From a virus, in UHGV virus genome UHGV-1374414: a stretch of DNA of 45,123 nucleotides; one strand, given 5' to 3'. This document shows, in pieces, positions 3,903-42,047 of the stretch; the stretch's first letter is position 1, and each line of letters opens with the position of its first letter. Made by a program: the position numbers and the translations under genes. The notes under the pieces are model-generated. The model saw nothing but the letters and a program-made list of their open reading frames with translations, was not told where the DNA came from and ran no database searches.

Positions 3903-5332
3903 TGGCGATTAAACCAAAACGTAAAACGCAATCCGGTAGCAATACGGAACACTCATTACTCGGGCCATCCGGTGCTAAAAAATGGATGGGTTGCCCCGCC
4001 GCCCTGGTGGTAGAACAAGGTATCCCGAACGAATCCGGGCAAGCGGCAATTAACGGTACGAGTATGCACACCGTATCTGAAGTCGTGCTCAACCGCATTA
4101 TCGCCGGTGAGAAGCTGATAACCGCGAAGACGTACAAAGGGTGCTACGTCGAGAACGAAGGCAAGGGACCGGTGAAGGCACACCCGAAAGCACCGAAAGG
4201 CGGCGTACTGGTAAACGACGACATTGTGAAACAGTGCGACGCGTACATCGACCACTGGCGACCGCTCCTCGAAGTGGCGGAGTTTGTTCAGCTTGAGATG
4301 CGCGCCGATCTTACCCGCGTCCTACACTCGGGCTTCGAGATCGACGGCAACCGGGTTAAGACGTTCGGCACTGCCGATATGGTCATGGTCATGAAGAAGA
4401 CCGACGGCACGTACATGCTGATTGTTGGCGACCTGAAGACGGGACGGCATAAGGTCGAGGCGAAAGAAAACAAACAGCTTATGTTGTACGCGCTCGGCCT
4501 GCTGCGCAAGCTGAAAACTATGTACGACATTACAACCGTGCGCCTGGTTATCTTCCAGCCGTATTGCGGCGGGGCGTCGGAGTGGGATATTACAGTGGAA
4601 GCGCTGGAGATATTCGCGAAGTTTGCGTCCAAGCGTGCTATCGCCGCCCTGGAAGCGTACGCCCGCGGCAAAAAGGGACTCACCCGTGCCGACTTCCGAC
4701 CGAGCGTTGATGCGTGTCAGTGGTGCCGATTTGCGGATCAGTGTAGTGCCCGCGCTAAGGCCGCAATCGACACGATGACCCCACCAACGGCAACAGACGA
4801 AGACCTGGGCGACGACGTGAGTATTGCGACAGAGGAAGAATGCGCCAATCACGACCGCAATATGGCCCGCGAAGCCCGCAAAGCGGCACGACGTGAGAAG
4901 CGTGGTAAGAAAGAAGCGGCCCCCGGCGCTATGACCGCCGCGGAACTTCGCAAGGCATATGAAGGTCTTGACGCAATGCGCCAGCACATCAAGGCTATCG
5001 AGTCCGCGGTGTTCAAGGCCGTAATGGCGGGTGATGGCGAATCGCTGGGCCTCAAGATGGTTGCCGGTAAGGAAGGAATCCGCAAGTGGGCGGACGAGAG
5101 CGAAGTGATTGAAATCTTCACGAAGGCCCGGATCAAACGCGATGTGATGTACAAAGAAACATTGCTCAGTCCTACGGATGCCGAGAAGGTACTGAAGGAC
5201 GAGAAGCCGAAAGTGTGGGCGAAGTTGTGTGATAAAATCACGCGCGCACCGGCTAAACCTGTATTAGCGCCCATTGACGACCCGCGCCCTGCGTGGTCTG
5301 AAGCTACCGACGAGGACTTAAGCAATGAATAA
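3902..5332 (+). CDS. PD-(D/E)XK nuclease, Cas4/RecB-like (DUF2800-like) exonuclease
   Basis: 476 aa; N-terminal LLGPSGAKKWMGCPA; GDLKTGRHK and QLMLYA motifs; C-terminal Cys cluster CQWCRFADQC; start overlaps upstream stop. Confidence 0.7.
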   Translation: MAIKPKRKTQSGSNTEHSLLGPSGAKKWMGCPAALVVEQGIPNESGQAAINGTSMHTVSEVVLNRIIAGEKLITAKTYKGCYVENEGKGPVKAHPKAPKGGVLVNDDIVKQCDAYIDHWRPLLEVAEFVQLEMRADLTRVLHSGFEIDGNRVKTFGTADMVMVMKKTDGTYMLIVGDLKTGRHKVEAKENKQLMLYALGLLRKLKTMYDITTVRLVIFQPYCGGASEWDITVEALEIFAKFASKRAIAALEAYARGKKGLTRADFRPSVDACQWCRFADQCSARAKAAIDTMTPPTATDEDLGDDVSIATEEECANHDRNMAREARKAARREKRGKKEAAPGAMTAAELRKAYEGLDAMRQHIKAIESAVFKAVMAGDGESLGLKMVAGKEGIRKWADESEVIEIFTKARIKRDVMYKETLLSPTDAEKVLKDEKPKVWAKLCDKITRAPAKPVLAPIDDPRPAWSEATDEDLSNE

Positions 5333-5567
5333 AGTATTCGCAATCTTATTGATGTTTTTGCTAGGCGCGCTGGTCTTTGGCCTGTATTGCGTGCAAGGCG
5401 TGTTAGCGGTGGCATGGATTATTCGCCACCCTAGCCAATGGGAGGACGACGGCTACAACAAAGGTGTTCCGGACTGGATGGCGAATAATGGCGACCGCCC
5501 GCCGTTAAGCTGGATCAATAACGCCGCCAACTACGTGAACAGAAATCTTTTTAATAAAAACGCTTGA
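5325..5567 (+). CDS. small membrane protein
   Basis: 80 aa; hydrophobic N-terminus VFAILLMFLLGALVFGLYCV; start overlaps nuclease stop. Confidence 0.5.
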   Translation: MNKVFAILLMFLLGALVFGLYCVQGVLAVAWIIRHPSQWEDDGYNKGVPDWMANNGDRPPLSWINNAANYVNRNLFNKNA

Positions 5568-12888: not shown

Positions 12889-13347
12889 ATGAAAATTTTA
12901 CAAGAAGAGAAAAATTACTGGGCCGCGCAATGCCTCGAAGCCCGCGAGCAAGCCGATCGGGCGAACGCGGTGGCGGACACCAACCAGGCGCTATATGAAG
13001 GCGAGAAGAAAGTGCGCCAGGAGCTAGAGGAGCGCTTCGAACTGCTTTTCGAATTGATGGGGATTATGCAGCGCACTGGATACACAACCAGCGTTGCGCT
13101 AAATCGCATCACTGCCGATGGTTTGCGTGAGCATTGCAAACGTGCCGAGGAGTACGTGCGCCCAAAAGGTCGCCAGTCTAAGATCGACCGTAAAGATCTG
13201 GTGCTTGTGGCGTGGCGCAATCCCACAAATGGCTATTTTCATGGTCGCCCTATGAGCGCCGAGGAGTCAAAGCGAGTGCAGCGAATCCTGAAGAAAGGCA
13301 ACAATATCGCCCTGTACGCGATAGCCCCCGACCATGACGAAGAATGA
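12889..13347 (+). CDS. hypothetical protein
   Basis: 152 aa; SD GGAG 8 nt upstream. Confidence 0.6.
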   Translation: MKILQEEKNYWAAQCLEAREQADRANAVADTNQALYEGEKKVRQELEERFELLFELMGIMQRTGYTTSVALNRITADGLREHCKRAEEYVRPKGRQSKIDRKDLVLVAWRNPTNGYFHGRPMSAEESKRVQRILKKGNNIALYAIAPDHDEE

Positions 13348-13819: not shown

Positions 13820-14024
13820 CCGCGACCCAGCGGTAGTAGACCAAATGCAAAAAGACTACGGTATTGACCCGCGACGCAATCGTGTGGTGCGCGCGTCTCG
13901 CCCCGAATACATCCAGGGCCTTGACCTCACCGGTTGGCTTGACATGACTCGGCGTTGCCATTTCGTGTGCAACTCCTTTACTGCGCGAAGCGCCCGTTAC
14001 ACCCTTATTGAGAGTTTAAAATGA
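13800..14024 (+). CDS. hypothetical protein
   Basis: ATG 13800; 74 aa; stop overlaps next ATG (ATGA). Confidence 0.45.
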   Translation: MNILIVDRDPAVVDQMQKDYGIDPRRNRVVRASRPEYIQGLDLTGWLDMTRRCHFVCNSFTARSARYTLIESLK

Positions 14025-14491
14025 AATTACTGATTTGCGATTTGGATGGCGTTATTAACGGTTCAAGCGATGCGCGTGCCGACCTGGTTCCGGGTATAAA
14101 AACGAAATCAACCTTCTGGGCAAAGTGGCACAAAGCGCACGTACGCGAAGACCTGAACATGGATATGCTGCCGCTGTTGCGCATGTACAAAGAGCAAGGC
14201 TTCGAGATCGCGTATCTGACCAACCGGCAGCGAGAATGCTGGGACACGACCGCCGAACAACTGGAGGTCTTCCCGGTGGGCCGGTTGTTTATGCGCCATA
14301 TGCAGGACGACACCCCGCCGCCAGAGTTTAAGGCGTGCGCCGTGTTCAAAATGGTTTGCTATGCGGACGTATCGGAACTGGTCATCATTGAAGACTGTCC
14401 GAAGAACATCGCGGCAATTCGTCGGGCGTGTAGCGATCTGGTCCCGAAAATTTACGCAATAAATGTTGCAAAATTTACTTGCAACCAATAG
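14021..14491 (+). CDS. HAD-superfamily phosphatase (nucleotidase / polynucleotide 3'-phosphatase-like)
   Basis: 156 aa; HAD motif I LLICDLDGVI, motif II YLTNR, acidic motif IIEDCP. Confidence 0.55.
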   Translation: MKLLICDLDGVINGSSDARADLVPGIKTKSTFWAKWHKAHVREDLNMDMLPLLRMYKEQGFEIAYLTNRQRECWDTTAEQLEVFPVGRLFMRHMQDDTPPPEFKACAVFKMVCYADVSELVIIEDCPKNIAAIRRACSDLVPKIYAINVAKFTCNQ

Positions 14492-37265: not shown

Positions 37266-38651
37266 TTAGTAGAAGTCTACAGTTGGAACAACGGCGACAG
37301 GACGAATCACTGGGAACAGGTGCGCAATTGGATAGCCAGCGGCATCGTTCATGTGGTCCACACCGGCGGTTTTATCCGGCTCGCCTTTCTTCAGGTCGTA
37401 AACCTGCTGTTCCAGACATTTCGCTAGTGTAGGGCATTTATCCAGGTTGACAAAATACTGGCGCACGCCCTTCGAGTTGCACATCATCGTATTCATCGCG
37501 ATCAATCGGTCTTTCACAGGTGGGTTAACACTGTCATACTCCACCTCGAAGCCCGCGTCTTCCAGTTGCGCTATATCGGACGATGATGCGTTGACAGTCT
37601 TGCGAGACTTGCCGCTGCTATCCGGGTAAACGACAACACGACCGGCAGCACAATGATCGGGGTAGCGCTCCTCGATCGCCTCAATCATAGCCGGGGTATC
37701 GAACAGGTCCACGAATTCATCCACTGCGTGAATCTCGTCGCGGAACTCCTTGTTTTCGGTGATGCGCTGCCGTCTGACGTACACGACCGCCGCCATTTTC
37801 GTGACGTTAAAGTCCATACCGATAATCAGCGTGTCTTCCGGCTGCACTTCTTCGGTGCTGGCGTTATCCTCACGATTGAACATCTTGTATACCGCGCCCG
37901 ACGTAAGGTTGACAAACATACCGTTCAGGTACGCATCAATCAGGTTAGCCGGGTACTGGCTGCGCAGAGTGTCGATAAAGTCAGCCGGTAAGTGGTGATT
38001 ATCGGTAGTCTTCGCCCGGATCAAACGTTTCTGGCTATCCTTCTCCACTTCGAAAATCTGGTACATCGCCCGGAAGCCTTCAGGCGTGGATACGATGACG
38101 AACTGGCGTACCAAGCCAGCACGCAGACGACCAAGCAATTTGTGATATGCCGCCATCGCGACGTCTTGCTTCGTGGTGTCGAACTCGTCGGCAACAATCC
38201 ATGCGGCGTTAACCCCGATAAGGCGGGTGTAGTTTTCCATTGACTCGCAGATTACGCGGGTCCATTTGCCTTTCACCAGAACGCTGTAGATCTTGTCCTG
38301 CTTATTGAACTTCCACCGGAAGCCCGCCTCGTCAAACGCCTTTTCCAATTCTGGATACATGATTTTAACCAGAAGTGGAATAGTCGGTTCTGTAACGATG
38401 CCATCATGACCAGGGTTCAGGGTTAAAAGCTGGATGACCTTTCGCGCCGCGACCCATGACTTGCCACCACCGAAGCCGGAGCACAGGCCGAGGATTTTAG
38501 TCTTCGTGTCGCGCAGTAGCTCCACCTGGTGAGGAAGGCAATCAGGCTGGTAAAGGCGGACGGCCTGTGCAACGCGTGTCGGGCGCGGCGGTCTGTTTCG
38601 CTTTGCGATCGCGCGTTCAAGGGCGCGATGTTCTGCCGCATAGTTACGCAT
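37266..38651 (-). CDS. terL: terminase large subunit
   Basis: 461 aa; Walker A GFGGGKS, Walker B WIVADEFD; start overlaps small subunit stop (TAATG). Confidence 0.85.
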   Translation of the reverse strand: MRNYAAEHRALERAIAKRNRPPRPTRVAQAVRLYQPDCLPHQVELLRDTKTKILGLCSGFGGGKSWVAARKVIQLLTLNPGHDGIVTEPTIPLLVKIMYPELEKAFDEAGFRWKFNKQDKIYSVLVKGKWTRVICESMENYTRLIGVNAAWIVADEFDTTKQDVAMAAYHKLLGRLRAGLVRQFVIVSTPEGFRAMYQIFEVEKDSQKRLIRAKTTDNHHLPADFIDTLRSQYPANLIDAYLNGMFVNLTSGAVYKMFNREDNASTEEVQPEDTLIIGMDFNVTKMAAVVYVRRQRITENKEFRDEIHAVDEFVDLFDTPAMIEAIEERYPDHCAAGRVVVYPDSSGKSRKTVNASSSDIAQLEDAGFEVEYDSVNPPVKDRLIAMNTMMCNSKGVRQYFVNLDKCPTLAKCLEQQVYDLKKGEPDKTAGVDHMNDAAGYPIAHLFPVIRPVAVVPTVDFY

Positions 38652-39202
38652 TACTCACCCTGACCTTTGCCAGTAGGCTCCACAACGACGTCGCCGTTAT
38701 CATCTTCGTCGTCATCCAGCGGTACATCGTCCCGGACGCCGTGGTTGGCTTTAAGCAGGAAGGTAGCGAAGCCCGCCGCGATGGTCACGCCGCCAGCTTC
38801 CATCAGGAACGTTTTCTGCAACTCCATAGCGTCCGCCATCGCCTCGGCGAACTCCTCATGTGCGCGCGCCCAGCGGTACAGGCAGGCGACGCCTACACCA
38901 ATATCTGCGGCAAAGCGACCTAGAGTCGGCATCTTGTTGCGAGGGATTACCTGCGCAGCACCTTTGTCGGAGTAGTTGATTTGCCAGGCTACGGCATCGG
39001 CGAAATAGCGGCGAAGCTGGTCACAATACACGGTACGGTAGTCGGTAGGACGTCCACATTTGCCGCCTCTACGGCGCTTGCCGTATTCGATCTCCGGCCC
39101 GAGATTGGTGTGTTCTGTTTGCTCGCCTGGTTTACGGCGCGGGGTAACTGCTACTCGTCCGTCCAGTTTAGCGCGACGGCCTTTAACTTTAATTTCTGCC
39201 AT
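38651..39202 (-). CDS. putative terminase small subunit
   Basis: ATG 39202 with AAAGGG SD; basic N-terminus, acidic C-terminus; translationally coupled to terL. Confidence 0.5.
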   Translation of the reverse strand: MAEIKVKGRRAKLDGRVAVTPRRKPGEQTEHTNLGPEIEYGKRRRGGKCGRPTDYRTVYCDQLRRYFADAVAWQINYSDKGAAQVIPRNKMPTLGRFAADIGVGVACLYRWARAHEEFAEAMADAMELQKTFLMEAGGVTIAAGFATFLLKANHGVRDDVPLDDDEDDNGDVVVEPTGKGQGE

Positions 39203-39282
39203 GATATAAGCCCTTTTGTGCATATGCGCCGACCATCGGCAACATAGGAGACGGCCCTGCCATCTAAGGGGATTATAACAGG

Positions 39283-39308
39283 CACAAAAAAGCCCACCAA
39301 ATCGGCGG
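39283..39308 (-). terminator. intrinsic terminator upstream of terminase genes
   Basis: Minus strand: gcccgcc-gattt-ggtgggc hairpin followed by tttttt. Confidence 0.5.
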
Positions 39309-39318
39309 GCTAGGAGGA

Positions 39319-39531
39319 TTAAACGGGGCGACCGTAGTATCGGGTTAACATGCTTTCTACTTCGCGTATAGCGCCTTCTGTGTAGCGTATTTGCGATAGT
39401 ATCTCGATCCGCTCGCTGATAGACATGCCTATCGCCGCTGCCGTTCGTTCGAATCGGCGCAAGCCTTCGAGTTGTTTGCGTAGTTCCTTCAGGCGGGTGG
39501 CCTGCGTGCTCATGAATACTTGTCTAATCAT
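39319..39531 (-). CDS. hypothetical protein
   Basis: 70 aa; start overlaps upstream stop (ATGA). Confidence 0.45.
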   Translation of the reverse strand: MIRQVFMSTQATRLKELRKQLEGLRRFERTAAAIGMSISERIEILSQIRYTEGAIREVESMLTRYYGRPV

Positions 39532-40670
39532 TTCAACATTTCCGGGCTAATGGTTAAGCGCGCTACTTCGCCGTAGTTGGCGCTGTAGGTGATTACGTTG
39601 GCACTGCGTCCGGACATCCAACCGCCGCGGCTGGCATATGCGTCTTTCGCTGCGAGGGTCCGGTGCTGTTCAACAATCATGTTGCGGGATTCAACAATCT
39701 TCTGGTGGTGCAAGTGGCCTACATGCGCGTAGCTGTACTCGCTGGCCCCGAAAGCCTGTCTGAATTTAGAAATCATAACGGTTTCGATGGCATCGAAGCG
39801 CGCTTTGTGCCCGTGGTGGAAGAACAGCGTGGTCTTGCCGTGCTGCACCATTTTGTACACGTCCGGGGACGTGTCCACATCGACACGAGGCTCGTTCTCG
39901 TACAGCGTATTGAACATTTCAGCCAGCCAAATCATACCAGACTCGTCATGATTCCCCTGGACGATTAGCAGTTTGACTTTGTGGTGTTTTTGCAGCGCCA
40001 GCTCCACCACGTTGCGCACCATGCGAATCATGTATCGTACCAGCTTCTGGTAGCGGGTATCTGCGTCCAGTACGTGACCGCTGGCAGGAGTGACGGCATC
40101 GAGGCTATCAAAGTGGGCCATATCACCGAGGATATTAATCACGGCAGTGCCTGCGTCCGGTGCGCGTGCGAAGGCTTCGACAAACCAGCGGTAGAACAGG
40201 TCTTCGGCAATCGCCATATCCCAGTCTTCGCCCGTCTCTTCGCCCCAGGCCAACATGCCCAGGTGGAAGTCGGACACGGTGTACAGGTTGAGTAGGTCAA
40301 GTGCCTGGATCGGGACTGGTGGGGCGCTTACTGGTGCTGCCGGTTTTATTTCGCTGTTCATACCCTCGACAACAGCGCGCATGGCTTCAAGCTGGCGCTC
40401 CTTGTCCTGCTCAGTGATAACCCACGACATGACTTCTTCGCCATTGCCGCGCACCAGGGCGGATACGCGCTTAACACCGAAGCCATCGGCAACGCGCTTA
40501 CGGATTACGGCATCGTTACCGTGACCAATACCTTTCTTCGACAGGCGGGCTTTGCGCATGTAGACATTTCGGAGGGAAAGACCGTACCTCTTAGCAATAT
40601 CTTTCGAGGTAGTGCCGGATTGCAACTCGGCGATCAATTGCTCGTCGGTGATTTTAGTTTGCGGGTGCAT
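39528..40670 (-). CDS. calcineurin-like metallophosphoesterase with N-terminal HTH domain
   Basis: 380 aa; N-terminal TSKDIAKRYGLSLRNVYMRKARL (HTH); phosphoesterase motifs SDFHLG, GDMAHFD, GNHDE, HHGH, GHLHH. Confidence 0.7.
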   Translation of the reverse strand: MHPQTKITDEQLIAELQSGTTSKDIAKRYGLSLRNVYMRKARLSKKGIGHGNDAVIRKRVADGFGVKRVSALVRGNGEEVMSWVITEQDKERQLEAMRAVVEGMNSEIKPAAPVSAPPVPIQALDLLNLYTVSDFHLGMLAWGEETGEDWDMAIAEDLFYRWFVEAFARAPDAGTAVINILGDMAHFDSLDAVTPASGHVLDADTRYQKLVRYMIRMVRNVVELALQKHHKVKLLIVQGNHDESGMIWLAEMFNTLYENEPRVDVDTSPDVYKMVQHGKTTLFFHHGHKARFDAIETVMISKFRQAFGASEYSYAHVGHLHHQKIVESRNMIVEQHRTLAAKDAYASRGGWMSGRSANVITYSANYGEVARLTISPEMLK

Positions 40671-40801
40671 ATTAATTCACTTCATGATTAAGGGACCGAA
40701 GACAATATACCACGGTCCCTATTGTGGCGTGTTATAGCAGTTCGCAAATAACCATACCGATAAATGCTGCGGTGGACCGGATGGCCAATACCCAAATATC
40801 A

Positions 40802-41029
40802 TTACGTGCCATAGTGTAACTCCATCTCAGTGAAAGCGGCGCTTATGCCGTCGTTAGTTATCCATACACCGCGCGTATCGCTAAACTTGAATACTTCAGT
40901 CCAGTTCCCGTGCTCATTCATAACGTAATACTTATCGTCAATCAGGAAAACACCATATTCCAGATACTGGATTACGGCGCGCGTAGCGGATTCATGACAG
41001 ATGACCGTGCAGATTAATTCAGGTTCCAT
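40802..41029 (-). CDS. hypothetical protein
   Basis: ATG 41029 with GAGGAG SD; 75 aa. Confidence 0.5.
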   Translation of the reverse strand: MEPELICTVICHESATRAVIQYLEYGVFLIDDKYYVMNEHGNWTEVFKFSDTRGVWITNDGISAAFTEMELHYGT

Positions 41030-41095: not shown

Positions 41096-41128
41096 AAAAG
41101 CCCGGAATTAACCGGGCTTGTGGTTTTA
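41096..41128 (-). terminator. intrinsic terminator after Ig-like gene (hairpin could act on both strands)
   Basis: agcccgg-ttaatt-ccgggct hairpin with T runs on both sides. Confidence 0.6.
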
Positions 41129-41539
41129 TCCTGCGGCTCCCGTTACGGTGAAGATGGCGGACGCCATCGCCCCGCCCCCATCGGATGCCACCCAGAAGAT
41201 GTGGACGCCACCCTCCGTTCTTGCTGTGATTTCGCCGGTAGCCTGATTGATTTCCGCGCATTCTGGGTTTGCAGACACCCACTTCCCTACCTTGTTAGTT
41301 GCGTCGGATGGCAGGACGGCAACAGAAGCGGCGGCTTTCGCCCCAACTGCGGCTGACACTGGGGTGATGGTTATGGTCGCACTTGCCACTGGCTTACTTT
41401 CCGGCGGGCTAGGTAACTTCGCGTCGAAGACCCCAGCGCGGCTGATCGTATCCGCTACAATAGCGCGTGCGCCTGGGTCTTCGATTTTAGCCAGCGCAGC
41501 AAGCGCGTCGGCGTTATGATCAAGAATACTTTTTAACAT
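41126..41539 (-). CDS. bacterial Ig-like (Big_2-type) domain protein
   Basis: 137 aa; ITPVSAAVGAKAAASVAVLPSDATNKVGKWVSANPECAEINQATGEI resembles Big_2 fold. Confidence 0.55.
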   Translation of the reverse strand: MLKSILDHNADALAALAKIEDPGARAIVADTISRAGVFDAKLPSPPESKPVASATITITPVSAAVGAKAAASVAVLPSDATNKVGKWVSANPECAEINQATGEITARTEGGVHIFWVASDGGGAMASAIFTVTGAAG

Positions 41540-41555: not shown

Positions 41556-42047
41556 TTATGCTGCGTTACGTCCGATTCTCTCGGCAACGTCCCACTGCTT
41601 ACCATCGAATAGCGCTTGCCTGCCGATTGCTCGACGGACCAGACCCTTGAGCACTTCCCCGCCTTGCTTGCGGAACTGCGGCAGAGTAGCACGGACCTTC
41701 GCCCAGTCACCCAGTCGCACTGCATCATCGAAGTCATTAGCGATATGGTCCGGTACGATCGGACCCTGACCTGCATTGATTACCAGATCCACCAGCGCGT
41801 CGAATTGCGCCTGGTTAATGCTCGGATGTGCGTATTTGTTCACCCAATCTTCCGCATACGCCACGTCACGCTTGAGTAGTTCCAGCGCTTCCGCGCGGGT
41901 AATGCTTCGAGGCGGGTTAGTGCCGGTGTGTCCATAACCCCAGGTGTACAGGCCGCGGGCCTGCTCTTTCTTAGTCGCGAAATACGGCACTGGGCTAAAA
42001 GCCTCCCATGCTGCCGTGAATCGCAGACCGTTGTCACTGAATCGCAT
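41556..42047 (-). CDS. endolysin (phage lysozyme, GH24-like)
   Basis: 163 aa; N-terminal ...EAFSPVPYFATKKEQARGLYTWGYGHT resembles T4-lysozyme catalytic region; preceded by two small membrane proteins. Confidence 0.7.
   Translation of the reverse strand: MRFSDNGLRFTAAWEAFSPVPYFATKKEQARGLYTWGYGHTGTNPPRSITRAEALELLKRDVAYAEDWVNKYAHPSINQAQFDALVDLVINAGQGPIVPDHIANDFDDAVRLGDWAKVRATLPQFRKQGGEVLKGLVRRAIGRQALFDGKQWDVAERIGRNAA

What the first reader, a model, noticed from the sequence alone, without database searches (positions are those of the whole stretch)
39528..40670. HTH domain fused to a calcineurin-like metallophosphoesterase just upstream of the terminase genes
The N-terminal HTH plus a full set of phosphoesterase motifs (DxH, GDxxD, GNHD/E, HHGH, GHxH) suggests a DNA-targeted nuclease or phosphatase. 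Comparable metallophosphatase-type proteins in other phages are linked to host DNA degradation or DNA processing. The fusion and its position next to packaging genes are unusual.
Basis: partly seen in the sequence, partly recalled or inferred. Interest (0 to 1): 0.5.

Follow-up and report, generated by a model that had tools for sequence, protein, structure and literature searches.

The report
Common phage DNA-binding metallophosphoesterase, probable nuclease
The gene is real and encodes a DNA-binding domain fused to a metal-dependent phosphoesterase that most resembles DNA nucleases, but it belongs to a very common, already annotated and untested phage family (phage T1 gp16), and its place beside the packaging genes is peculiar to this phage genus.

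Summary
ORF 39528-40670 (minus strand, 380 aa) has an N-terminal three-helix HTH, a beta-hairpin plus helix, and a complete binuclear metallophosphoesterase (MPE) core. One correction: motif II is GDxxH, not GDxxD.

The window is an almost complete E. coli Dhillonvirus genome. The protein is 96-99% identical to GenBank proteins already called "putative phosphoesterase" or "DNA repair exonuclease" (PHROG 704, E 1e-160). The family includes T1 gp16, occurs in at least 2,075 phage records and 4,657 50%-identity clusters, and also sits in proteobacterial prophages. About 88% of full-length members carry the HTH, so the fusion is the rule.

Terminase adjacency is not conserved: TerL lies within 3 kb in 1 of 47 dereplicated lineages. 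Here the gene has its own conserved extended -10 element, and terminator-like hairpins flank it. Recurrent neighbours are lysozyme, dNMP kinase, a dATP/dGTP diphosphohydrolase-like protein, a HAD phosphatase and DNA ligase.

Best reading: a stand-alone, HTH-tethered DNA nuclease of the DNA/nucleotide-metabolism module. No enzyme activity has been tested. Interest is modest.

The parts
39528..40670 (-). CDS of 380 aa: HTH-metallophosphoesterase, PHROG 704, the phage T1 gp16 family
   Evidence: ORF list. PHROG 704 at E 1.1e-160 over the full length. 96-99% identical proteins in Dhillonvirus records.
40536..40646 (-). N-terminal three-helix HTH (residues 9-45), LuxR/resolvase/sigma-r4-like
40353..40481 (-). 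Conserved beta-hairpin (residues 64-73 and 79-88) plus helix (90-106); G77 and W83 are invariant in the N-terminal alignment; no structural match found
   Evidence: Retained in the short Campylobacter homologue that lacks the HTH.
39531..40295 (-). Binuclear metallophosphoesterase core (residues 126-380), with no capping domain after it
40263..40271 (-). Motif I, D134-F-H136 (within SDFHLG, compare SbcD SDWHLG)
40113..40127 (-). Motif II, G182-D183-M-A-H186 (GDxxH). H186 sits at the position of P. putida MPE His81 (metal-ligand Asp78 + 3), which is needed for nuclease activity but not for bis-pNPP hydrolysis
   Evidence: PMC7826289.
40053..40094 (-). Family-specific conserved loop V-T194-P-x-S-G-H-x-L-D202-x-D-x-R206; candidate substrate-binding element (inference)
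   Evidence: T194 invariant; L201, D202 and R206 conserved in at least 90% of 54 members.
39942..39956 (-). Motif III, G239-N240-H241-D-E
39807..39818 (-). Motif IV, H285-H286-G-H288
39705..39719 (-). Motif V, G318-H319-L-H321-H322
40704..40712 (-). Extended -10-like element TGgTATATT, about 35 nt upstream of the ATG; probable own sigma-70 promoter (inference)
   Evidence: The only block conserved in all 7 Dhillonvirus intergenic sequences, including two whose upstream region is otherwise different. Coordinates.
41098..41119 (-). Terminator-like hairpin plus T-run closing the upstream lysis-side unit
   Evidence: Scan. Independently annotated at the same place in phage WFI.
39319..39531 (-). 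orf70, a small ORF whose ATG overlaps the MPE stop (ATGA); specific to this genus, function unknown
   Evidence: phrog_20931 only. No Pfam match. Found only in Dhillonvirus loci.
39291..39311 (-). Terminator-like hairpin plus T-run between orf70 and the small terminase gene
   Evidence: Scan. Annotated terminator at the same place in phage WFI.

Best explanation
The gene encodes a stand-alone, two-metal (probably Mn2+) phosphodiesterase that acts on DNA, that is, a nuclease with Mre11/SbcD/DP1-like and P. putida-MPE-like chemistry. A flexible N-terminal HTH holds it on DNA, in place of a Rad50/SbcC partner and a capping domain.

Proposed mechanism (inferred):
- The metal-bridged water attacks a DNA phosphodiester.
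- H241 (GNH) acts as general acid.
- H186 (GDxxH) positions the DNA or the general acid.

It is transcribed from its own sigma-70-type promoter as part of the phage's DNA/nucleotide-metabolism functions, not as a packaging protein. The most likely biological role is cutting or trimming DNA during lytic growth. The target would be either the host chromosome, feeding nucleotide re-use, or ends and branches of replication/recombination intermediates.

What is shown: the architecture, the intact active site, the nuclease-like fold ranking, the variable genomic position and the recurrent nucleotide-metabolism neighbours. What is inferred: the substrate, the in vivo role and the timing of expression.
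For: - All seven canonical metal ligands and the motif III His are conserved across 54 members at 31-81% identity.
- The model is confident: pLDDT 92.8.
- The MPE-only profile reaches only T. maritima Mre11 and the P. putida MPE nuclease in the PDB. Motif I aligns (SDWHLG against TDxHLG) and motif II is identical (GDLLH).
- H186 is conserved in at least 90% of members. It occupies the position of P. putida MPE His81, which is essential for DNA cleavage but not for bis-pNPP hydrolysis. That enzyme is a monomeric MPE nuclease without capping domain or SMC partner (PMC7826289).
- The N-terminal domain is a DNA-binding-type HTH and is kept in 88% of full-length representatives.
- Gene context is DNA/nucleotide metabolism. 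In 47 dereplicated lineages, 15 have a dNMP kinase, a dATP/dGTP-diphosphohydrolase-like protein or a HAD_PNKP phosphatase within 3 kb. DNA ligase, endonuclease VII, exonuclease, SSB and DNA polymerase also occur nearby.
- There is a precedent for a phage MPE that degrades DNA in vitro and host DNA in vivo (PMC12287305).
- T1 and TLS degrade the host chromosome, and the responsible gene is still unidentified (PMC11447400). T1 carries a member of this family, gp16.
Against: - No biochemical or genetic data exist for any member of this family in the literature searched.
- Sequence-level links to Mre11/SbcD are not significant: E 0.16-0.5 and hhalign probability 3%.
- The neighbours are nucleotide-level enzymes, which would also fit a nucleotide substrate.
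- Members occur in integrated prophages of many Proteobacteria. That argues against wholesale host-chromosome degradation as the family-wide role.
- This window has no dNMP kinase, and its HAD phosphatase is about 25 kb away.
Confidence: 0.45

Rival explanations
1. Nucleic-acid end-healing enzyme. The MPE would act as a 2',3'-cyclic phosphodiesterase or 3'-phosphatase, like the MPE domain of Clostridium thermocellum Pnkp or lambda phosphatase acting on 2',3'-cyclic phosphates. It would prepare broken DNA or RNA ends for sealing, working with a HAD_PNKP-type phosphatase and a ligase.
For: - A HAD_PNKP phosphatase gene directly follows the homologue in Kagunavirus, Jedunavirus and several metagenomic lineages.
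- In L038 and L044 the order is MPE - HAD - dNMP kinase - ATP-dependent DNA ligase.
- A ligase precedes the homologue in Campylobacter phages.
- MPE domains with this activity are documented (PMC2190708, listed).
- P. putida MPE yields mixed 3'-PO4 and 3'-OH ends.
Against: - HAD is within 3 kb in only 3 of 47 lineages, and ligase in 2 of 47.
- The P-loop neighbour is a dNMP kinase, not a polynucleotide kinase.
- Motif II is GDxxH, not GDxVDRG.
- A HAD phosphatase would make a second 3'-phosphatase redundant.
Confidence: 0.12
2. Nucleotide-level phosphoesterase. It would hydrolyse dNTPs/NTPs, 3'-nucleotides, or cyclic or oligo-nucleotide signals, either to remodel pools for phage DNA synthesis or to destroy defence second messengers. 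The HTH would serve localisation or autoregulation.
For: - The commonest functional neighbours are nucleotide-pool enzymes: dGTP_diPhyd_N in 8 of 47 lineages, DNMK in 6 of 47 and HAD in 3 of 47.
- A calcineurin-like plus HAD pair that acts on dNTPs exists on the defence side (PMC12871103).
Against: - A conserved DNA-binding HTH is hard to justify for a small-molecule enzyme.
- The best structural and sequence neighbours are nucleases.
- The GDxxH histidine is dispensable for small-substrate hydrolysis in P. putida MPE, yet it is conserved in at least 90% of members here.
- There is no PADLOC or anti-defence family match.
Confidence: 0.12
3. Replication or recombination accessory whose essential role is largely non-catalytic or protein-directed. 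Bxb1 gp47 is the model: from my own knowledge, not checked here, it is a phosphoesterase-like recombination directionality factor that is also needed for phage DNA replication. The HTH would target the protein to phage DNA.
For: - A phage MPE-like protein of cluster A mycobacteriophages (the Bxb1 gp47 family) is required for phage DNA replication in M. tuberculosis (PMC12287305; Bxb1 gp47 located).
- Family members sit in replication modules and in temperate prophages.
Against: - The invariance of every catalytic residue across a very divergent family argues for catalysis.
- It belongs to a different PHROG (704 against 221), with no specific similarity to gp47 (hhalign probability 4.7%).
- This virulent phage genome shows no integrase in the annotation of a close relative.
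Confidence: 0.08
4. Packaging-associated nuclease that helps the terminase cut concatemers, by analogy with the HNH proteins next to terminases of HK97-like cos phages (the analogy rests on my own knowledge). This is the reading implied by the first reader.
For: - The gene lies 0.9 kb upstream of TerL on the same strand in Dhillonvirus.
- TerL lies 1.9-4 kb downstream in some other lineages.
Against: - TerL is within 3 kb in only 1 of 47 dereplicated lineages.
- In T1 the gene is more than 30 kb from the terminase genes in the linear record, and the record annotates a terminator immediately after it.
- In K1ind2 it lies among tail genes on the opposite strand.
- A terminator-like hairpin separates it from TerS here and in phage WFI.
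- Lysozyme is the commonest neighbour (13 of 47), which fits a position at a module boundary.
Confidence: 0.04
5. Ser/Thr/Tyr protein phosphatase of the lambda NinI (PPP) type.
For: It belongs to the same superfamily and carries the five motifs. Lambda encodes such an enzyme.
Against: - hhalign probability against lambda phosphatase is 1%.
- It belongs to a different PHROG (246 against 704).
- Motif II lacks the PPP-type DRG.
Confidence: 0.03

Closest known systems
PHROG 704 / phage T1 gp16 (ST16) family. Public records name its members 'DNA repair exonuclease', 'putative phosphoesterase', 'calcineurin-like phosphoesterase' or 'winged HTH domain-containing protein'
   Same: Full-length match at E 1e-160. 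Same length and the same HTH + hairpin + MPE architecture. 96-99% identical proteins occur in Dhillonvirus, about 75% in Kagunavirus and Jerseyvirus-type phages, and 42-47% in T1-like phages.
   Different: Nothing structural differs. Only the genomic position (beside the terminase) is specific to this genus. The family has no experimentally defined function.
Mre11 / SbcD nuclease subunits
   Different: No capping domain, no Rad50/SbcC partner gene, no C-terminal Rad50-binding helices, and an extra N-terminal HTH. Sequence similarity is not significant (E 0.16; hhalign 3%).
PolD small subunit DP1 (archaeal 3'-5' proofreading exonuclease)
Pseudomonas putida MPE / PdeM (ligase-associated DNA-damage-response ssDNA endonuclease)
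   Same: A stand-alone MPE nuclease without capping domain or SMC partner. Shares the GDxxH and GNH histidines that are essential for DNA cleavage. A ligase is an occasional neighbour.
Cluster A mycobacteriophage MPE (A10ZJ24 Gp48, Bxb1 gp47, L5 gp54; PHROG 221)
   Same: A phage-encoded MPE with all five motifs. Gp48 degrades DNA in vitro and host DNA in vivo, and is needed for phage DNA replication in M. tuberculosis (PMC12287305).
   Different: About 255 aa, no HTH and a different PHROG. hhalign probability is 4.7%.
Lambda NinI Ser/Thr phosphatase and the C. thermocellum Pnkp phosphatase domain (PPP-like MPEs)
   Same: The same superfamily and the same metal-ligand scheme.

Membership tests
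Binuclear metallophosphoesterase (calcineurin-like) superfamily | Five motifs supplying seven metal ligands (D-x-H, G-D, G-N-H, H, G-H-x-H) | tested here: met
   D134, H136, D183, N240, H286, H319 and H321 are present. All are invariant, or conserved in at least 90%, across 54 members.
Binuclear metallophosphoesterase (calcineurin-like) superfamily | The superfamily's characteristic beta-sandwich fold | tested here: met
Binuclear metallophosphoesterase (calcineurin-like) superfamily | Score above the Pfam gathering threshold (PF00149 / PF12850) | tested here: not met
   20.0 against 21.5 bits, and 21.8 against 27 bits. The curated sequence models do not capture this family; membership rests on the motifs and the fold.
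Mre11 / SbcD | Nuclease-type active site (GDxxH, GNHD) | tested here: met
Mre11 / SbcD | Capping domain C-terminal to the phosphoesterase domain | tested here: not met
   The protein ends with the MPE core (residues 126-380). Only 187-193 residues align to chains of 319-362 residues.
Mre11 / SbcD | Rad50/SbcC SMC-like ATPase partner encoded with it | tested here: not met
   No such gene appears in the window's ORF map, in the full annotation of a close relative, or around homologues. The ~185-aa 'ATP-binding protein' neighbour in K1ind2 is a dNMP kinase. The 192-aa SBP gene annotated 'Rad50 ATPase' has no Pfam match and only function-unknown PHROG matches.
Mre11 / SbcD | Significant sequence or profile similarity | tested here: not met
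   E 0.16-0.5 against T. maritima Mre11. hhalign probability 3% against E. coli SbcD. SbcD falls in PHROG 100, not 704.
PPP-family protein phosphatase (lambda NinI type) | GDxVDRG / GNHE motifs and the PPP fold as closest relative | tested here: not met
PdeM / P. putida MPE (TIGR04123) | Score above the NCBIfam cut-off; Lhr-ligase-exonuclease operon | tested here: not met
   10.9 bits against 150. No Lhr helicase nearby. Ligase is within 3 kb in 2 of 47 lineages.
PHROG 704 (phage T1 gp16 family) | Full-length profile match | tested here: met
   E 1.1e-160, residues 5-380 against profile positions 2-390 of 390. T1 ST16 is annotated 'DNA repair exonuclease', the name of PHROG 704. K1ind2's own note calls its homologue similar to T1. 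T1-like phages match the query at 42-47% identity. T1 ST16 itself was not aligned to the query.
LuxR/GerE-type HTH | Tri- or tetra-helical HTH with a significant profile match | tested here: inconclusive
Any nuclease or phosphatase family | Demonstrated enzymatic activity and substrate | not testable with these tools
   This needs purified protein. No published assay for this family was found.

The most novel reading that the evidence does not exclude
This HTH-MPE family (T1 gp16 and its Dhillonvirus, Kagunavirus, Jerseyvirus and Webervirus homologues) is the still-unidentified nuclease that breaks down the host chromosome for nucleotide re-use in T1-like and related virulent siphophages. It would work as a Rad50-independent Mre11-like enzyme tethered to DNA by its HTH. 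If so, it would also be the source of the m6-dAMP danger signal sensed by PUA-Cal-HAD-type defences in these phages.
Probability: 0.18. Interest if true: 0.55.

Novelty: already known. Interest (0 to 1): 0.3.

Why it matters
The family is among the more widespread uncharacterised enzymes of enterobacterial siphophages. It is found in about 4% of all phage records searched, including the classic phage T1 and many therapy-candidate phages.

If it is a partner-less, HTH-tethered Mre11-like nuclease, two things would follow:
- It would add a minimal architecture to the MPE nucleases.
- It could answer a question that the T1/TLS literature still lists as open: which gene degrades the host chromosome (PMC11447400).

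For genome annotation the practical points are these:
- The gene should not be read as a packaging function.
- The neighbouring 'polynucleotide kinase' genes in relatives are phosphatase-only HAD proteins.
- The neighbouring 'ATP-binding protein' in K1ind2 is a dNMP kinase.

Tried and rejected
- Single-sequence searches were uninformative. phmmer against PDB sequences gave only spurious designed-repeat hits. NCBIfam gave nothing meaningful. PADLOC gave nothing.
- hhalign of the family alignment against single sequences of E. coli SbcD, lambda phosphatase and Bxb1 gp47 gave probabilities of 1-5%. These neither support nor exclude anything.
- The search for related loci with the 54-sequence alignment failed for lack of a conserved stretch. 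A 10-sequence alignment worked.
- The afdb50 fold library was not available.
- An inverted repeat just upstream of the start codon (about 40692-40720) looked like a regulatory hairpin. Its arms are not conserved or compensated in relatives. The conserved block inside it is an extended -10 element, so I rejected the hairpin reading.
- I first read the HAD + P-loop neighbours as a split T4-type polynucleotide kinase-phosphatase. The P-loop protein is a dNMP kinase, so I rejected that.
- I considered a Rad50-like partner. The 'Rad50 ATPase' annotation on a 192-aa gene in Klebsiella phage SBP has no Pfam match and only function-unknown PHROG matches.
- Literature searches for a functional study of this family found none. 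The T1 genome paper is not held.
Full report
WHAT IS THERE. Megablast of the surrounding 4 kb finds 157 phage records, nearly all E. coli Dhillonvirus (HK578-like siphophages), at 90-95% nucleotide identity. At 45,123 bases the window is essentially a whole genome of that genus. Its gene order matches phage vB_EcoS_L-h 1M read in reverse. On the coding (minus) strand the local order is:
- holins, then lysozyme (41556-42047)
- a 137-aa protein with an Ig-like domain (41126-41539)
- a terminator-like hairpin (41119-41098)
- a 75-aa ORF and a 26-codon hydrophobic ORF
- the gene in question
- a 70-aa ORF whose ATG overlaps its stop codon (39319-39531)
- a terminator-like hairpin (39311-39291)
- the small terminase subunit TerS (38651-39223), the large subunit TerL (37266-38651), then the portal.

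DOMAINS AND MOTIFS. Single-sequence Pfam hits to Metallophos_2 and Metallophos (21.8 and 20.0 bits) and to several HTH models (E 0.02-0.15) all fall below the gathering scores. The evidence therefore had to come from the family.

The protein matches PHROG 704 ('DNA repair exonuclease') over its whole length at E 1e-160. The family is large:
- A word-indexed search of 5.8 billion proteins gave 3,704 hits.
- An exhaustive HMMER search of 50%-identity representatives gave 4,657 clusters at E of 1e-3 or better, and 1,133 at 1e-30 or better.

In an alignment of 54 members sharing 31-81% identity with the query, D134, H136, G182, D183, T194, N240, H241, H286, G318 and H321 are invariant. H186, D188, D202, R206, D242, H285, H288 and H319 are conserved in at least 90%. 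These residues make up the five MPE motifs:
- DFH (134-136)
- GDMAH (182-186)
- GNHDE (239-243)
- HHGH (285-288)
- GHLHH (318-322).

One correction to the finding: motif II is GDxxH, not GDxxD.

An AlphaFold2 model built on that alignment is confident (mean pLDDT 92.8, pTM 0.79). It shows:
- three helices at residues 9-17, 22-29 and 33-45
- a less confident linker
- a beta-hairpin (64-73 and 79-88) and a helix (90-106)
- an MPE core from 126 to the C-terminus.

A family HTH profile detects the HTH in 126 of 144 full-length representative clusters. Several of the remainder show divergent HTH-like N-termini on inspection. A few lineages, such as the 317-aa Campylobacter protein, start directly at the hairpin. 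The fusion is therefore the normal state of this family, not an oddity.

NUCLEASE OR PHOSPHATASE.
- Next come LpxH (13.8), MJ0936 (13.4) and further Mre11 chains (13.0-13.4).
- PPP-type protein phosphatases (PP5, PP1, calcineurin) score 8.5-9.3, and P. putida MPE scores 9.2.
- Foldseek also puts Mre11 and DP1 on top.
- A profile of the MPE core alone reaches only T. maritima Mre11/SbcD (E 0.16-0.49) and the P. putida MPE nuclease (E 0.49) among all PDB sequences. These hits are not significant. They do align motif I (SDWHLG against TDxHLG) and an identical motif II, GDLLH.
- E. coli SbcD has HTSDWHLG, AGDVFD and AGNHD at the corresponding places.

The near-invariant H186 sits three residues after the bridging Asp, as His81 does in P. 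putida MPE (metal ligand Asp78). In that enzyme His81 and the motif III His113 are essential for DNA cleavage but dispensable for bis-pNPP hydrolysis. That enzyme is also a monomer with neither capping domain nor SMC partner (PMC7826289). From memory, the equivalent His of P. furiosus Mre11 (H52) is needed for its exonuclease activity; I did not verify this here.

Against formal membership in Mre11/SbcD:
- The protein stops at the end of the MPE core, so it has no capping domain.
- No Rad50/SbcC-like gene is present in the window or next to homologues.
- hhalign against single SbcD, lambda phosphatase or Bxb1 gp47 sequences is uninformative.

My conclusion is that this is a separate family of the MPE superfamily. 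Its nearest structural relatives are DNA nucleases, and it most probably works like them.

GENOMIC CONTEXT. tblastn finds the protein in 2,075 of 50,697 phage records: Escherichia 560, Klebsiella 468, Salmonella 373, Vibrio 254, Campylobacter 59 and others. Its position differs from genus to genus:
- In T1 it is gp16 (ST16), between the dam region and the lysis genes, with an annotated terminator immediately after it. It is more than 30 kb from the terminase genes in the linear record.
- In Hanrivervirus Henu8 it lies between an HNH gene and the holin.
- In Cornellvirus Shemara it is a lone gene between spanin and head genes on the other strand, with its own terminator.
- In Kagunavirus K1ind2 it lies among tail genes.
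- In Jedunavirus SBP and in K1ind2 a 'polynucleotide kinase' follows it directly.
- In Campylobacter Fletchervirus it follows a DNA ligase.
- In a Vibrio phage it follows SSB and an RNase H-like gene.

The 'polynucleotide kinase' genes hit only the Pfam HAD_PNKP phosphatase domain. The next gene in K1ind2 and in L038 is a dNMP kinase (PHROG 139). In the metagenomic loci L038 and L044 the order is exonuclease - endonuclease VII - MPE - HAD - dNMP kinase - ATP-dependent DNA ligase.

I collected 80 viral loci and 64 loci from bacterial genomes. I dereplicated them at 70% MPE identity and kept those with at least 2.5 kb on both sides, which left 47 lineages. I then counted neighbours within 3 kb with iterated profile searches:

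| Neighbour within 3 kb | Lineages (of 47) |
|---|---|
| Lysozyme | 13 |
| dATP/dGTP-diphosphohydrolase-like (PF18909) | 8 |
| dNMP kinase | 6 |
| HAD phosphatase | 3 |
| DNA ligase | 2 |
| TerL | 1 (this Dhillonvirus lineage) |

Fifteen of the 47 have at least one nucleotide-metabolism neighbour. There is no background model for these counts, so they show module membership, not statistical enrichment.

The gene therefore typically sits at the end of the DNA/nucleotide-metabolism module, often next to the lysis cassette. Terminase adjacency is a lineage-specific result of module order.

Within Dhillonvirus, phage WFI carries independently annotated terminators on both sides of the MPE-orf70 pair, matching my scan. 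The only intergenic block conserved in all seven Dhillonvirus sequences is ccgTGgTATATTgtc. That includes two sequences whose upstream region is otherwise unrelated. The block is an extended -10-like element about 35 nt before the ATG (coordinates 40712-40704).

The gene's G+C content (0.552) equals that of the genome (0.547). This window has a HAD phosphatase of the same PHROG as the neighbours in other genera (415), but it lies at 14021-14488, far from the MPE. The window has no dNMP kinase.

LITERATURE. I found no functional study of this family. Three papers bear on the question:
- A Dhillonvirus genome paper simply lists the gene as 'putative phosphoesterase' (PMC5893235).
- The 2024 re-annotation of the T1-like phage TLS states that T1 and TLS degrade the host genome and re-use the nucleotides, and that the responsible gene products have not been identified. 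It also lists a 'proof-reading exonuclease (gp66)', which may be the TLS member of this family; I did not check this (PMC11447400).
- A mycobacteriophage MPE (A10ZJ24 Gp48, of the Bxb1 gp47 family) has phosphodiesterase activity, degrades DNA in vitro, degrades host DNA in vivo, and is needed for phage replication in M. tuberculosis (PMC12287305). That protein is about 255 aa, lacks an HTH and falls in PHROG 221. It is a functional precedent, not a relative.

In addition, a 2026 preprint shows that a PUA-Calcineurin-HAD defence senses m6-dAMP released by phage-induced chromosome degradation. That defence protects against a T1-like phage, Bas12 (PMC12871103).

INTERPRETATION. The best-supported model is an HTH-tethered, partner-less, two-metal DNA phosphodiesterase acting in phage DNA/nucleotide metabolism (confidence about 0.45). 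The specific role of host-chromosome breakdown is attractive for T1-like and other virulent lineages. It is weakened by the family's presence in integrated prophages of many Proteobacteria, where homologues lie on multi-megabase chromosomes with lysozyme and terminase genes nearby. I give that reading about 0.18.

The rivals are:
- an end-healing phosphoesterase working with the HAD phosphatase and a ligase (0.12)
- a nucleotide-level hydrolase (0.12)
- a mainly non-catalytic replication factor (0.08)
- a packaging helper (0.04)
- a protein phosphatase (0.03).

Nothing here demonstrates activity, substrate or timing of expression.

VERDICT. Interest is 0.3.

Noticed in passing
window 14021-14488 (+); L004 6122-6607; L003 6116-6610; L089 (T1) 4948-5478: Genes annotated 'polynucleotide kinase' in T1, K1ind2 and Klebsiella phage SBP, and the window's PHROG 415 homologue, match only the HAD_PNKP phosphatase domain or HAD acid-phosphatase models. 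No kinase domain is detected, so the name is misleading.
   Followed up: partly
L004 6607-7161; L038 7716-8282; L096 4165-4821: The 'ATP-binding protein' that follows the HAD gene next to MPE homologues is a dNMP kinase (PHROG 139, Pfam DNMK). In L038 and L044 an ATP-dependent DNA ligase follows it, giving an MPE - HAD - dNMP kinase - ligase cassette.
   Followed up: partly
window 40704-40712 (-): The extended -10-like element TGgTATATT is the only intergenic block conserved in all seven Dhillonvirus sequences upstream of the gene. The inverted repeat around it (about 40692-40720) is not conserved.
   Followed up: partly
window 39319-39531 (-): A 70-aa ORF whose ATG overlaps the MPE stop codon (ATGA), which suggests translational coupling. 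It is specific to Dhillonvirus, matches phrog_20931 and has no Pfam match. Some relatives annotate a shorter version (start at Met7), and it was not detected in two IMG/VR relatives (L009, L010).
   Followed up: partly
window 40802-41029 (-) and 40732-40812 (-): A 75-aa ORF (phrog_16851, function unknown) and an overlapping 26-codon hydrophobic ORF lie between the upstream terminator-like hairpin and the MPE gene. The 26-codon ORF is conserved in four relatives but absent from two (L009, L010), and the 75-aa ORF gave no match in any fetched relative. A sigma-70-like promoter match (41089-41060) precedes them.
   Followed up: no
window 41126-41539 (-): A 137-aa protein directly after the lysozyme carries a C-terminal Ig-like (Big_2) domain and a 48-aa N-terminal part of its own PHROG (11068). 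It sits where a spanin gene would normally be expected.
   Followed up: no
L005 6466-6978; L053 7812-8321; L097 6793-7518 and others: A dATP/dGTP diphosphohydrolase N-terminal domain protein (PF18909) lies within 3 kb of the MPE gene in 8 of 47 dereplicated lineages. After lysozyme it is the most frequent neighbour among the six families counted.
   Followed up: partly
L094-L157 (bacterial genome contigs): Homologues at 31-55% identity lie in chromosomes of Dyella, Bordetella, Luteimonas, Rhizobium, Pseudomonas, Paraburkholderia and others, with phage lysozyme, terminase and HNH genes nearby. The family is therefore also carried by prophages and is not restricted to virulent phages.
   Followed up: partly
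window 12889-13347 (+): A 152-aa ORF matches PHROG 10530, labelled 'DNA ligase', at E 2e-91. It has no Pfam match and is far too short for a ligase, so the label looks unreliable.
   Followed up: no
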